A DNA stretch of 64,000 bases from Eledone cirrhosa (taxonomy: Eukaryota): contig OZ024745.1 in NCBI GenBank assembly GCA_964016885.1, positions 43,896,001 through 43,960,000 of the forward strand. Reading direction: 5' to 3'. This document shows, one piece after another, positions 2,314 to 50,864 of this stretch. The stretch's first letter is position 1. The number at the start of each line of letters is the position of its first letter. The notes beneath the pieces were generated by a model. That model was not told the DNA's origin, did not search any database, and saw nothing but the letters and a program-made list of their open reading frames with translations. The position numbers and the translations under genes were made by a program.

Positions 2314-2514
2314 GTATAATATAGATGAGATTCTACAGGACTAGAACTGTTTCATTCATTAGAAATCATCAGGAATCTCTGATTCCTGATGATTTCTAAT
2401 GAATGAAACAGTTCTAGTCCTGTAGAATCTCATCTATATTAAAACTTTTATACTCTGCTATGTATTGAGTACCTTACTTACTGTGGTTACCTCCGATTCA
2501 ACCCGGAATAACGT
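2314..2514 (+). mobile_element. Fold-back HHR element, family A copy 2 (inverted relative to copy 1)
   Basis: Reverse complement of 981-1180 except the 3-nt loop; HHR core CTGATGA at 2386-2392; bulged hairpin at 2451-2471. Confidence 0.8.
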
Positions 2515-2856
2515 ATATATATGTATATATATATATATATATATATATATATATATATATATGTGTATGTATATATATATATATATATATATATATATAT
2601 ATATATATATATATATATATATATATGTATATATATATATATATATATATATATATATATGTATATATATATATATATATGTATATATATATATGTATAT
2701 ATATATATATATGTATATATATATATATGTATATATATATATATATATATATATATATATATATATATATATATATATATATATATGTATATATATATAT
2801 ATATATATATATATATATATATATATATATATATATATATATATATATGTATATAT

Positions 2857-2980
2857 ATAGATAAATCTACCAAAAATTTACGGTAGTGTCCAATCCGTAT
2901 GAAGAACTCAATGTAATCCGGATATCATGAAAAGAGAAGATGCATTCAAAAACTATTTTCGGTGAAAATTAACGGAAAAT
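2857..2980 (-). mobile_element. Diverged solo tail of family B
   Basis: Imperfect reverse complement of about 3512-3634. Confidence 0.7.
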
Positions 2981-3072
2981 TATATATACATATATATATA
3001 TATATGTGTGTGTATATATATATATATATGTGTGTGTGTATATATATATATATATATATATATATATATATA

Positions 3073-3634
3073 TAAAATATTTAAAAAAAATAATGAATAA
3101 AACAATGAAACAGTTCCTTATATTAAACAAAAAAAGTTCATTATTTAACGATCGTTTCTAGGATATATATGTGTTAGAATTGGCATGCATATTCAACAGA
3201 TCTATGTACAAAATTATACAAAATTATACAAACTATCAAAATTAAATATACATACCAAACACATATATATGCCGTCTTCAGAAATAATTATTTCTGAAGA
3301 CGGCATATATATGTGTTTGGTATGTATATTTAATTTTGATAGTTTGTATAATTTTGTATAATTTTGTACATAGATCTGTTGAATATGCATGCCAATTCTA
3401 ACACATATATATCCTAGAAACGATCGTTAAATAATGAACTTTTTTTGTTTAATATAAGGAACTGTTTCATTGTTTTATTCATTATTTTTTTAATATTTTA
3501 TCTTGACTCTGTATTCCGTTTATCTTTCACCGAAAGTGATTTTTCATTGCATCTCTTCTTTCCATGATATCCGGATTACATTGAGTTCTTCATATGGATT
3601 GGACACTACCGTAAACTCTTGGTAGATTTATCTA
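3073..3634 (+). mobile_element. Fold-back HHR element, family B
   Basis: Near-perfect palindrome with ~215-bp arms and no loop, centred 3287/3288; tail 3503-3634; flanked by (TA)n. Confidence 0.85.
3287..3435 (+). ncRNA. Type I hammerhead ribozyme with ~116-nt extended stem II
   Basis: ATTATTT-CTGAAGA...GAAA-CGATCG-TT-AAATAAT. 7-bp stem I and palindromic stem III. Stem II pairings ATATATATGTGTT/AACACATATATAT and TGGTATGTATATT/AATATGCATGCCA. Confidence 0.8.
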
Positions 3635-3944
3635 CATATATATATATATATGTATGATATATATATATATATATATATATCATACATATATATATATATA
3701 TATATATATATATATATATATATATATATATATATATATATATATATATATATATATATACATAGCAGGGAAAAGCGGACGTAAAAATTGATGATGATGA
3801 TGATGTATATAATATCTATATGTATATATATATGATATATATATATATATATATATATAATATCTATATATATATATATATGTCCCAAGGCTCTGATACC
3901 ATCAACACTATAAACACAGAGCTGTCATATCTAAGAACTGACTA

Positions 3945-47142: not shown

Positions 47143-47490
47143 CGACTTGTACCGTCTTGTGCCTTTTGTGTGTCATCTTGTGCCATCTTGTACCGTCTGT
47201 GTGTCATCTGGAACCGTCTTGTGTCATCTGTGTCATCTTGTGCCGTCTGTGTGTCATCTTGTGCCATCTGTGTGTCATCTTGGGCCATCTTGTACCGTCT
47301 GTGTGTCACCTTGTGTCATCTTGTGCCGTCTGTGTGTCATCTTGAACCGTCTTGTGCCGTCTCGTGCCGTCCTGTACCGTCTTGTACCGTTTGTGTGTCA
47401 TCTTGCGCCGTCCTGCACCGTCTTGTGCAGTCTGTGTGTGATCCTGTGCCGTCTGTGTGTCATCTTGTGCCATCATGTACCGCCATATGT
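47143..47490. repeat. TGTGTCATCTTGTGCCGTC-type minisatellite
   Basis: Direct reading. Confidence 0.9.
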
Positions 47491-48344
47491 CGTCTTTAAT
47501 GTTTTCTTGATGCCAGCCAGGAAAGATTCGCTGGACAGATTTTTACGGATAAAACCAACCGGCAAGAGACCCAGGGGTAGACCCCGGGCAAGAGGGTTGG
47601 ATAACATCCATGAGCTTGGCTGGTCTCGCTTGGGGATCCTGTCGGATCAGTTGGAGACGGTTGCTCCTGACAGAACCCGCTGGAAGGAGTGTTTGAGAAT
47701 TCTGCTCTACGACTCTCTCAGAGAAGAAGAAGAAGAAGAAGAAGAAGAAGAAGAAGAAGAAGAAGAAGAAGAAAAAGAAAAAGAAGAAGAAGAAGAAGAA
47801 GAAGAAGAAGTGTACTAATATTTCTCCCTAGGTGCAACTCATAGGACATTATTAATATCCTTACTGCATCTCCAAAGATATGGTCCCTGGATCTGCATGT
47901 GCTATAGTCCTTGCAATATCTCATATTTCACTTCAGACCTTCACCTTCCCTTGATGATTTTTCTAAGCTCTCCAGGCCACAGTCATGTTTCGTATGCTGA
48001 TATAGTGAAAACTGACATTATTATACCATATTATGAATAAGATTACGTAAGTGAAGTCAACCTCCTTAACTAACTACTCCTAGCTGATGAAATTAACTTG
48101 ACTTTCAGCAAAAGAATGAATTAAAAAAAAAAATTTCTGGAATCTAAACAAATCCATTCTCTGACACTGGCCAACAATGGGTTATTAATCGTGTATCAGT
48201 AGAGTAATTATCTAAAAACTTGCTACCTACCTTCAACCTAGGAAATAGAGACAGTTTGCAGCTCATTAGAGTTGCACCTGAAGTGGAACTCTTTAAATAC
48301 CTTCTTTTGGCCTGGGTACTAGTAACAATACCCTGGCTGCTGCA

Positions 48345-50520
48345 CAGGCGTTGATAGAAATGGCGCGGCGAAACTTATATGCGATCATTAAAAGAAATAA
48401 AAAATGGAGCAACATTTGTTACAGAGTGATTGAAATACAAAATATTTCAACCCTGACATACAAAATGATTCCGGGTTTATCAGTCTGAGGTCGATCAAAG
48501 ATAATAGTTGACTAAAGTCACTGAGTACGGTGCAATAATTGTTGACTCTACAATTGATATCAGTAAAACTAATCAATTTTCTTTACCTTTGCAATATTCA
48601 ATAGCTAACAGCAATGCAATAGAATTATTTATACAATTCAGGGAATTAACTAGAGCAAGAGGTCGAAATCTTTTAAAAACATTCTTTGTTCAGCAATCAA
48701 AAACTCATGACTCAATAATTATGTTATATAGCCAGTCTTAGTTAGAAATGTTACACCCAATTCATTTTTTGCACACTGTTCTGCACATAATTTAAATCTG
48801 CTTTTGACTGGATGCAGTAAATTTCAATATTTAAACTAAGTTGTTTATTTTTTAACCCCAGAAAGTATTTATACTTTTTTTTTCTGAGATTTTTGTTCGT
48901 CTTTCAGTACTAAACGAACAGTTCAATCATAGATCTTTTGGATTAACTTTGTGAAACTAGATGGGTTTCCTTTCCAGACAGTCGGCAGTAAAGGCGGTCT
49001 TATAGAATTTACCAGTAATTACTCTATAAAGACTATAAATAATTTTCGTCTGTGATGTATTTGCTAGGACGACTCAGTACTTTCGTATTCTTAGTTGTTC
49101 TTAAATTCTAGAGTAAAATGCTAGACTCAGCTTATCTATATATTTACAGAACATTTGTCTAGACATGGTAACGATTTCTTATTTTATTCAAATGGTTGAT
49201 AAAGATGATAAACATCCGAAATGAATAAGAATCTAAATTTAAACATTAAGAATGAAGCAACCGAGTTGGTTATAAATGCGATTTAGATATAGAATACTAG
49301 CTCCCAGAAAACGTAAAAGACAGAGATTCTATGATGAAATTATAGAGGAGGGAGGAAAATTAGATGCTTGGAAGAAATTCATCGTTGATTCCTACACAAT
49401 ATCCTTACATTCTGAGATAAATAGCACAAGCAAAAGACTTGAATATTTTAAAATTTTATCATCCTACTTTTAGTGTTTAGAATCACAGCATTTTTGATAA
49501 CGAGGATAAAGTGAACAAATTAGAATTTTTAACATTTTTGTCAAAGTCGTATTCAGACGTCACCGACAAATAAACTGAAATTGTACAAGAGTTTCTTTCA
49601 TTCAAAGACAAGTACCAAACTATATTGAACACTTATGACGGATTCAAGAATTAAGCAACTCACCATTAGCAGTGTACTCTTAGGTCATGAATAATCGCCC
49701 CCCTCCCTCCCGGCTTATTAATATTTCAAATTTTTTCAACACACTCGCTTTTATTCCAGCCCCCCACCCTCACCCCGCTTATTACATTTTGTTAATCTAT
49801 CTCCGGTGAAATTCTATTGTGACAGAGCAGTTGAAGAATCTAATAATAATTTCATTGAAAAAGCATTATATATGACAAGGAAAGAACATTACGAGAAATT
49901 CCATATTTACGAACGCACACTAAGAAATTACCGTTTCCCCCGCTTCTAAGAATTTAAGCAAATGTCCACCCCTATCCCACCCCTATTATTTGGGACCCGA
50001 GAGTACTTAAATTCATGATCGCCATTGATATGTGTTCCGATTATTCTAATGTCAACATTGCACCACATTTTTCTGACGTTACCCACAACAAATACAGCTG
50101 CGGACTGCTCTTTTAGCTGGGCTCAAGTACATAAATTCGTACCTTCGTGTTACATTGAGTTAGTTTTACTCTCCATTGAAAGACAGTTGGCTACTGAGGT
50201 GAAGGATGAACCTAAACAAGAAAGGCCCTTGTAGTTGTTGACCACATTTTAAATTAATTAAATAACACGTTATTTAATTATGTTTTGATTTTAAATACCA
50301 TATACATTTATGAGCCGTACTGCAAAATTTTTTATTGTTTTGGTTTTAAACACAAAAGAACAATAATGTACTTCATTTGAAACTCTGTTTTGACAATAAA
50401 TAGAAAATAAAAATGTAGAATATATATAAAGTTATTTGGTGTGTGTGTTTGTGTCTTCTTTTTTACGTTTATTCCCCCCCCCCCCACTGCCCAACATTAG
50501 GATTTGGCTCCGTGCCTGTA
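48345..50520 (+). pseudogene. Decayed hAT (ZMYM1/Tip100-like) transposase
   Basis: AIIVDSTIDISKTNQFS, HCSAHNLNL and LTLPTTNTAADCSFS (dimerisation domain); boundaries uncertain. Confidence 0.7.
49674..50006. mobile_element. MITE nested in the hAT relic
   Basis: Imperfect TIRs GTACTCTTAGGTCATGAATAAT / ATTATTTGGGACCCGAGAGTAC. Confidence 0.6.
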
Positions 50521-50613
50521 TTGACCATGTATAATGATATCTATACTTTTCTCTATTTCATATAACTATATATATATATATAGTTATATATATATATATA
50601 TATAGAGAGAGAG

Positions 50614-50864
50614 AGAGTTAGTTCCACAACAAATGAATAAACCATATTCGAGGCCACGTGTTTCACCTGAGGGATTATTCAGCTCGTGTATAAGTTATAG
50701 TCCGTTCTCACTCTAACCATACATCAGCTGAATAATCCCTCAGGTGAAACACGTGTCCTGGAATATGGTTTACTCATTTGTTGTGGAACTAACTCTATAC
50801 CAAACTCGTCCTTTGGACTGAGTGCTCTACCAACTTTAGATATAACATCCCGTTTTTGTTTACC
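50614..50864 (+). mobile_element. Fold-back HHR element, family H
   Basis: ~70-bp arms 50614-50684 / 50726-50796. CAG-CTGAATA-stem II-GAAACACGTGTC-CTG (G8U). Hairpin ACTC-GTCC ttt GGAC-T-GAGT at 50804-50823. Confidence 0.78.

What the first reader, a model, noticed from the sequence alone, without database searches (positions are those of the whole stretch)
2441..50804. Inverted arms consistently stop a few nt before the bulged hairpin
Seen (arm end then hairpin start): 2441/2451, 3502/3505, about 6260/6264, 8202/8208, 18394/18402, 26437/26446, 50796/50804. The hairpin and tail are never part of the inverted arm, although arm length varies from about 50 to 455 bp. Inference: the hairpin sets a fixed internal initiation point or template boundary, where a short TA-like stretch anneals to nicked (TA)n target DNA. 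The variable end would be the fold-back or template-switch point.
Basis: partly seen in the sequence, partly recalled or inferred. Interest (0 to 1): 0.8.

Follow-up and report, generated by a model that had tools for sequence, protein, structure and literature searches.

The report
Twin hairpins set retrotransposon copying starts
These lopsided palindromes are ends of Penelope-like retrotransposons that stop a few bases before a small bulged hairpin, present twice in most full-length relatives, which likely tells the element's reverse transcriptase where to start two copies at once and would explain a long-known but unexplained 'tail' on such elements.

Summary
The seven sites are ends of seven repeat families in (TA)n. 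Five link to Hydra-clade Penelope-like elements (RT plus C-terminal GIY-YIG); an intact 713-aa copy exists. Across the genome, 105 of 111 inverted arms end -15..+3 from the hairpin. An inverted copy lacking a 'tail', and internal RT starts, are already published for Penelope-like elements. Not found in ten literature searches: (1) the bulged hairpin is conserved across the clade; (2) it usually occurs twice in the 5' UTR, and the tailed end stops just before the second copy (family C, two more families, one foreign element; not seen in family A); (3) 41 of 43 classifiable head-to-head pairs join one end of each type; (4) the 'variable' inner end piles up at a likely RNA 5' end in families A, B and D. 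Simple fold-back is disfavoured, since the arm often reaches further than its partner (29 vs 13). Best model (inferred, no RNA or biochemistry): two RT units, each placed by one hairpin, prime from opposite strands of nicked (TA)n; the two cDNAs are joined head to head.

The parts
2317..2377 (-). Family A inverted arm (tail-less copy); outer end abuts (TA)n
2381..2513 (+). Family A tailed copy, from the likely RNA 5' end to the tail end
2381..2429 (+). Type I hammerhead-like motif (read by eye; core at 2386-2392, predicted cut after 2424)
   Evidence: sequence, core position; not among the 150 Rfam rows shown
2452..2470 (+). Bulged hairpin 1 of family A
982..1178 (-). Identical second copy of the family A insertion, part of a larger inverted duplication
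3074..3635 (+). Family D insertion: arm about 3074-3287, tailed copy 3288-3635, long-loop hairpin 3506-3586
2858..2981 (-). Separate family D piece made only of tail and part of the hairpin
5958..6418 (+). Family C insertion: arm reaches -243, tailed copy only -74; hairpin 6264-6297
7279..8264 (+). Family G insertion, arms about 455 bp; imperfect hairpin from 8208
18047..18475 (+). Family E insertion; hairpin 18403-18427
19487..19641 (+). Further family B insertion: arm reaches -66, tailed copy only -22; hairpin from 19569
26332..26517 (+). Family B insertion: arms 26332-26383 and 26386-26437; hairpin 26446-26469
50614..50866 (+). Family F insertion; hairpin 50804-50823 with a 1-nt bulge
51910..52103 (+). 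Further family B insertion; hairpin from 52032

Best explanation
The palindromes are insertions of Hydra-clade Penelope-like retrotransposons in (TA)n, and their two outer ends likely mark two internal reverse-transcription start sites, each set a few bases 5' of a conserved bulged hairpin on the element's RNA. Shown: the RNA-sense order is TATA-like box (A, B), hammerhead-like motif, hairpin 1, tail, hairpin 2 (most families examined), start codon; copies end either before hairpin 1 or before hairpin 2; head-to-head pairs nearly always carry one end of each type. Inferred: two RT-endonuclease units (probably a dimer) each bind one hairpin; the endonuclease nicks both strands of the self-complementary (TA)n target; each 3' end anneals through 1-6 U/A bases next to its hairpin and primes a cDNA towards the RNA 5' end; the two cDNAs are joined by microhomology or a template jump and each templates the other's second strand. 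The stretch between the two sites is copied once and appears as the tail. Priming on the 5'-UTR copy would run off the nearby RNA 5' end and give the many 120-450 bp palindromes; priming on the 3' pseudo-LTR copy would give long or full-length insertions.
For: Parent elements: sense-strand RT and GIY-YIG frames upstream of families A, B, C, D, F; intact 713-aa ORF with Hydra-clade motifs (definition; published proteins look alike by eye). Both ends are internal: L007/L020 read through the tail into the start codon, and the intact copy ends at -6 without a tail. Fixed ends. Coordination: 41 of 43 classifiable pairs are mixed, p 1e-10 against independent choice. Two independent cDNAs: arm longer than partner in 29 rows, shorter in 13, within 10 nt in 69; three 'solo' copies appear by eye to be joined to a partner holding only part of the tail. 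Second hairpin just after the tail end: family C, metagenome element L338, and two further G000 families, where 15 of 16 and 16 of 18 distinct ends fall at the two pre-hairpin sites. Clade-wide motif: 21 of 35 foreign 5' UTRs against 4 of 35 antisense; two copies are visible in the published Hydra-1_Ajap consensus, which ends after the hammerhead, where hairpin 1 would follow. Inner limit: A 39 of 48, B 55 of 88, D 17 of 28 inner ends in a 10-13 nt window, about 30 nt below a TATA-like box in A and B; the intact copy begins there. Precedent: two internal starts, both strands nicked and extended, and a predicted dimer for PAc (PMC11167929).
Against: No RNA, protein-binding or priming data. Family A, with five read-through copies seen, has no recognisable second hairpin, and family F has only a long-loop candidate found by eye. 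Family G's hairpin is imperfect; E and G were not linked to an ORF; read-through copies of B, D, E and G were not seen. Half of the tail clusters (24 of 48) lack even the relaxed motif yet have tails, so the hairpin is not required for tails in general. Family C shows no inner pile-up and D has no TATA-like box at -30. The two arms share subfamily alleles in 33 of 34 B pairs, which does not separate one RNA from two RNAs of one source. Both cDNAs cover the same template stretch, so a one-RNA model needs strand displacement, which was not tested. Later deletions at palindrome centres could create part of the arm asymmetry.
Confidence: 0.62

Rival explanations
1. One cDNA is primed at the tail end, folds back on itself, and second-strand synthesis stalls just before the protein-bound hairpin, where it is joined to the other target end.
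For: Arms share subfamily alleles in 33 of 34 B pairs; 69 of 111 pairs are symmetric within 10 nt and 49 of 107 junctions overlap; it gives one tailed and one tail-less end by construction.
Against: The arm should be a subset of the tailed copy, but it reaches further in 29 rows against 13, by up to 540 nt. A 6-kb tail-less element and 16 solo tail-less copies have no partner to copy. It does not explain why the tail end also sits before a hairpin.
Confidence: 0.13
2. The ends are set by the endonuclease, not by RT: a symmetric or tandem intermediate is resolved by GIY-YIG cuts at U/A-rich sites positioned by the hairpin-forming sequence in DNA (the 'EN-mediated resolution' suggested in PMC8557442).
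For: The D. virilis endonuclease needs the tail for recognition (as summarised in PMC11167929); both sites are TA-like and so plausible cut sites; PMC8557442 favours this origin of the tail.
Against: For PAc the genomic ends coincide with RT starts mapped in vitro. The motif tolerates G-U pairs and is on the sense strand only, which suits RNA. It does not predict the inner pile-up.
Confidence: 0.12
3. The two sites are used by two separate ribonucleoprotein particles or by the 5' and 3' pseudo-LTR copies of one RNA, with no fixed two-hairpin geometry; the hairpin is only a general protein-binding tag.
For: L060 carries different family variants on its two arms; family A lacks a second hairpin; tails exist without the motif.
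Against: Independent site choice predicts about half mixed pairs, but 41 of 43 are mixed; both inner ends usually stop at the same limit.
Confidence: 0.1
4. Post-insertion decay: symmetric double-tailed palindromes lose one tail by deletion between an internal TA-like word and the flanking (TA)n.
For: Long palindromes next to (TA)n are unstable (general knowledge); most arm ends have a few bases of TA homology.
Against: The end is exact to the base in 36 of 44 B arms; a longer TA run inside the family C tail is not used; both tails are almost never lost or kept together; one A site has a single base of homology.
Confidence: 0.03

Closest known systems
Hydra-clade Penelope-like elements (Craig et al. 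2021, PMC8557442)
   Same: Single ORF with RT and C-terminal GIY-YIG, RW-basic motif, DKT, CxCX5C linker, CxxC and CxH, hammerhead in the pseudo-LTR, insertion in (TA)n, inverted 5'-truncated copy with a tail at one end.
   Different: Tails are about 55-190 nt rather than 30-40; family A is 6.0 kb with a long microsatellite-rich 3' UTR; the passages and section read do not describe a conserved hairpin, its duplication, mixed-end pairing or an inner pile-up.
PAc (Poseidon clade, green anole; Frangieh et al. 2024, PMC11167929)
   Same: Two internal RT start sites bounding the tail, both target strands cut and extended, AT-rich target, uncut hammerhead in the template, predicted dimer.
   Different: PAc starts inside an AC-rich stem-loop within the ORF at a site described as not homologous to the target. 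Here the starts lie in the 5' UTR, 5' of small bulged hairpins, mostly with a few U/A bases of homology. The parts read do not address how inverted copies form.
L1 twin priming (recalled; no paper on it was read here)
   Same: Two target nicks prime two cDNAs that are joined by microhomology, giving an inverted segment.
   Different: L1's second primer lands at variable sites and the two cDNAs cover adjacent, non-overlapping RNA; here both sites are fixed and the cDNAs overlap, giving a palindrome with a single-copy tail.
Telomerase RNA template boundary and recognition elements (recalled)
   Same: A related RT is positioned on a short internal template by a protein-bound RNA structure and primes through a few base pairs with a simple repeat.
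   Different: The telomerase boundary lies 5' of the template and stops synthesis; this hairpin lies 3' of the start and synthesis runs away from it.
Non-LTR retrozymes (bioRxiv 10.64898/2026.07.22.740005)
   Same: Short hammerhead-bearing derivatives of Penelope-like pseudo-LTRs in high copy.
   Different: Retrozymes are head-to-tail tandems; these are head-to-head pairs with independent junctions, read here as short products of the autonomous RNA.

Membership tests
Penelope-like elements (EN+) | Single ORF with RT and GIY-YIG endonuclease | tested here: met
   713-aa intact ORF with YRDD and YIG motifs. Profile support is weak: GIY-YIG E 0.012, below cut-off; 4 of 35 aligned members match GIY-YIG and 1 matches RVT_1; one retron RT at E 0.007.
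Penelope-like elements (EN+) | Pseudo-LTR: the same stretch at the 5' end and at the 3' end | tested here: met
   L310 carries the hammerhead stretch at both ends, 97.5% identical over 80 nt.
Penelope-like elements (EN+) | Inverted 5'-truncated copy and tail at one end | tested here: met
   41 of 43 classifiable pairs; tails are longer than the published 30-40 nt.
Hydra clade | RWK-type motif, DKT, CxCX5C linker, CxxC and CxH, C-terminal EN | tested here: met
   Read in the family A protein (RWR, DKT, CxCx5C) and in fragments of C, D, F, against the definition; published Hydra proteins show the same motif order by eye.
Hydra clade | CCHH motif, CxC domain and IFD absent | tested here: inconclusive
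   Not seen by eye; no alignment with reference clades was run.
Hydra clade | Canonical hammerhead in the pseudo-LTR | tested here: inconclusive
   Core present in A, D and one F subfamily; exact core absent in the reference copies of B, C, E, G; no hammerhead among the 150 of 229 Rfam rows shown; cleavage not testable.
Hydra clade | Insertion into (TA)n | tested here: met
   58 of 63 pre-hairpin ends and 175 of 191 tail ends are followed by (TA)n.
Hydra clade | Placement in the clade on an RT tree | not tested
   No reference sequences of the other clades were available as files.
Hydra clade | Generally under 3 kb (descriptive, not diagnostic) | tested here: not met
   Family A spans 6,046 nt because of a long 3' UTR.
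L1-type twin priming | Second primer at variable internal sites; cDNAs cover non-overlapping RNA | tested here: not met
   Sites are fixed and the copies overlap. It works like twin priming but is not filed there.
Telomerase-type template boundary | Structure 5' of the template that halts RT | tested here: not met
   Sense strand fixed by the ORF; the hairpin is 3' of the end it marks.
Hairpin-directed RT start (proposed) | Protein binds the hairpin and starts cDNA next to it | not testable with these tools
   Needs biochemistry.

The most novel reading that the evidence does not exclude
Hydra-clade elements carry a clade-wide, duplicated RNA address: two bulged hairpins act as rulers for the two halves of an RT-endonuclease dimer, so one particle primes both strands of a (TA)n break at two staggered fixed sites. 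This one geometry would produce the tail, the inverted pseudo-LTR and the tens of thousands of mini-palindromes, and would be a portable signal for starting reverse transcription inside any RNA.
Probability: 0.45. Interest if true: 0.82.

Novelty: new variant of a known kind. Interest (0 to 1): 0.63.

Why it matters
How Penelope-like elements make their inverted repeats and one-sided tail is an open question (PMC8557442 calls for an in vitro system; PMC11167929 maps two starts for one element of another clade). This finding supplies a concrete cis signal, a distance rule, a 41-of-43 pairing rule and an intact element with which to test them. These RTs are the closest relatives of telomerase, so a hairpin that sets an internal start next to a short repeat-pairing stretch bears on how telomerase-like template use arose. 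It also accounts for an abundant class of short palindromes in this genome: four families have 2,994 to 17,592 exact anchor matches each.

Tried and rejected
DNA search of G000 with the family A stretch found nothing because common words are skipped. Rfam gave only hairpin and microsatellite look-alikes below their gathering scores in the rows shown. No RNA holder was listed for family A, so no reads were laid; this is no evidence on expression. Pfam barely sees the protein. A Tx1/L1-type RT next to one family B copy (L035/L279) was rejected as parent: family homology stops at its edge. Hammerhead cleavage as the source of the inner end was rejected: only 1 of 48 family A inner ends is at the predicted cut (-27). 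Arm-to-arm alleles did not separate one template from two. The protein search for read-through 5' UTRs returned mostly family F. No dimer prediction was obtained, so the dimer step rests on the PAc precedent alone. Two look-ups of earlier scan findings were empty.
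Full report
Setting. The window is G000:C5:43,896,001-43,960,000 of a 3.0-Gb, (TA)n-rich animal genome. Positions below are relative to the first base of the hairpin's lower stem.

Observation. The seven sites are real. Each is a head-to-head inverted repeat between (TA)n or other dinucleotide runs, with a single-copy extension on one side that begins with a hairpin: a 4-bp lower stem, a 1-2 nt U-led bulge on the 3' side, three or more upper pairs and a loop of 3 to over 60 nt. The seven belong to seven unrelated families, A-G, with 8,749, 17,592, 266, 2,994, 23, 87 and 6,235 exact anchor matches. 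G's hairpin is imperfect and single hairpins fold weakly.

Is the arm end fixed? I held 1.064 Mb of G000 (plus the window; two blocks were picked for copy density, none for arm structure) and mapped family segments anchored upstream of the hairpin. Ends are bimodal: in B, 31 of 67 at -6 and 25 at +71. Of 84 non-tailed segments, 63 end in -15..+1 against 12.7 expected. Of 254 hairpin-anchored copies, 6 did not align, 120 had no arm in range, 17 had a non-adjacent arm and 111 an adjacent one; 105 of the 111 end in -15..+3. About five loci are counted twice in these rows (duplications or both sides of one locus). A family-blind scan gave 42 of 93 against 16 of 4000. Whole-genome counts for one B subfamily are 9,986 pre-hairpin ends and 9,540 read-through.

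What the elements are. Long copies of A, B, C, D and F lead upstream, on the same strand, into RT and GIY-YIG frames; E and G were not linked. L310 is an intact family A element of 6,046 nt with a 713-aa ORF. Its motifs match the Hydra clade as defined in PMC8557442 section 11 and its published proteins by eye; homologues come from corals, cephalopods and marine metagenomes. The inverted truncated copy and a 30-40 bp one-sided tail are published features of Penelope-like elements, and two internal RT starts bounding the tail were mapped for PAc.

Both ends are internal. L007 and L020 read through the tail into the start codon about 110 nt after the hairpin, so hairpin and tail also lie in the 5' UTR. 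L310 begins right after (TA)n at -74 and its 3' end stops at -6 with no tail. Sixteen solo pre-hairpin copies occur, some with (TA)n on both sides.

The two ends are coordinated. Of 50 head-to-head pairs, 43 had both ends classifiable: 41 mixed, 1 double-tailed, 1 double-tail-less (p 1e-10 against independent choice).

The inner end. It is not a free fold-back point. The arm reaches at least 10 nt further 5' than the tailed copy in 29 rows, less far in 13, and within 10 nt in 69 (p 0.02); snap-back predicts the opposite bias, although later deletions could blur this. Junctions are 49 overlaps, 45 insertions and 13 blunt of 107. Inner ends pile up at -74..-64 in A (39 of 48), -72..-60 in B (55 of 88) and -221..-212 in D (17 of 28), but not in C. 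The limit is about 30 nt below a TATA-like box in A and B and 5-7 nt before the hammerhead core in A, D and F. I read it as the RNA 5' end; for D. virilis Penelope the promoter and start lie in the pseudo-LTR (PMC2377424). No RNA data were available. Arms share subfamily alleles in 33 of 34 B pairs.

The hairpin is clade-wide and usually double. Of 176 tails in 48 clusters, 24 clusters carry a relaxed motif with a 14.6% background, and 24 do not. In relatives from metagenomes (53 of 77 loci given to the script), 21 of 35 5' UTRs have it against 4 of 35 antisense; about two of the 21 are off-type. Two strict copies occur in 4 of these UTRs and a second copy is readable by eye in 6 more. Of 18 loci compared, the 3' pseudo-LTR ends 3-5 nt before hairpin 1 in three (L318, L325, L344), ends just before hairpin 2 in one (L338), and the rest are uninformative. 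In G000, family C's tail end sits about 6 nt before a second hairpin. For two more families, 9 and 6 of 16 distinct ends, and 9 and 7 of 18, fall just before hairpins 1 and 2, nearly all followed by (TA)n. The published Hydra-1_Ajap consensus opens with both hairpins and ends after the hammerhead, where hairpin 1 would follow. Against: family A shows no second hairpin in five read-through copies, and F has only a long-loop candidate.

Mechanism. Shown: anatomy, fixed ends, mixed pairing, inner limit. Inferred: binding of each hairpin by one RT unit, nicking of both strands of (TA)n, priming through 1-6 U/A bases, overlapping cDNAs joined head to head. Homology alone does not set the site: family C's internal TA run is passed in 14 of 14 copies shown, and one common A site has a single matching base. 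I put the two-site, hairpin-directed twin-priming model at about 0.6, fold-back at 0.13, endonuclease resolution at 0.12, independent particles at 0.1 and decay at 0.03.

Literature seen. PMC11167929: parts 1-2 of 4 of the text, and the text layer of supplements 1-2. PMC8557442: passages, section 11, and supplement parts. PMC3846280 and PMC2377424: passages. bioRxiv 10.64898/2026.07.22.740005: parts 1-2 of 5. Ten searches found no description of the hairpin, its duplication or the pairing rule; subscription papers and Repbase notes are not covered. L1 twin priming, telomerase RNA elements and promoter consensus labels are recalled.

Verdict. Real, largely explained by a known class, with new mechanistic detail that makes an open question directly testable. 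New variant of a known kind; interest 0.63.

Noticed in passing
window 965-1653 and 1842-2530: The whole family A insertion with its (TA)n flanks is present twice in inverted orientation with the same junction; a similar case is at G000:C1:52,779,467-52,779,664. Local inverted duplication in (TA)n, or an assembly artefact.
   Followed up: no
window 42538-42557: Another bulged hairpin of the same kind with a short tail before a TA/TG run; probably a further family without an inverted arm.
   Followed up: partly
window 16992-18064 (-): Broken Penelope-like RT C-terminus and GIY-YIG frames of a different type (Zn-finger linker resembling Neptune by recall), directly beside the family E insertion.
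   Followed up: partly
window 3790-4110: Short element with a type I hammerhead-like motif near 3950-3990 followed by a polyadenylation-like word, between (TA)n runs.
   Followed up: no
window 19140-19430 and L095, C1 blocks: A tailed family (8 copies) with a 60-nt tail and no bulged hairpin; other hairpin-less tails of 40-75 nt also occur and may belong to other clades.
   Followed up: partly
window 4386-5890 (-): Broken RTE-like LINE reverse transcriptase frames.
   Followed up: no
window 21263-23422 (+): Broken non-LTR reverse transcriptase with a C-terminal restriction-like endonuclease region.
   Followed up: no
window 32147-33096 (-): Frames resembling a DNA transposase (recalled similarity only).
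   Followed up: no
window 56837-60863: Long CAA-rich array followed by about 138 copies of a 24-bp minisatellite, open in several frames.
   Followed up: no
L310 (reverse strand) about 3440-7050: The intact family A element carries a 3' UTR of about 3.6 kb made largely of TA/TG microsatellite that is shared between copies, so the element spreads microsatellite-like target sequence.
   Followed up: partly
L060: The two arms differ by a 3-nt block, each form being a variant seen in other family B copies; suggests two templates in this one insertion.
   Followed up: partly
L010: The tailed copy starts exactly at the predicted hammerhead cut (-27) while the arm runs to -72.
   Followed up: partly
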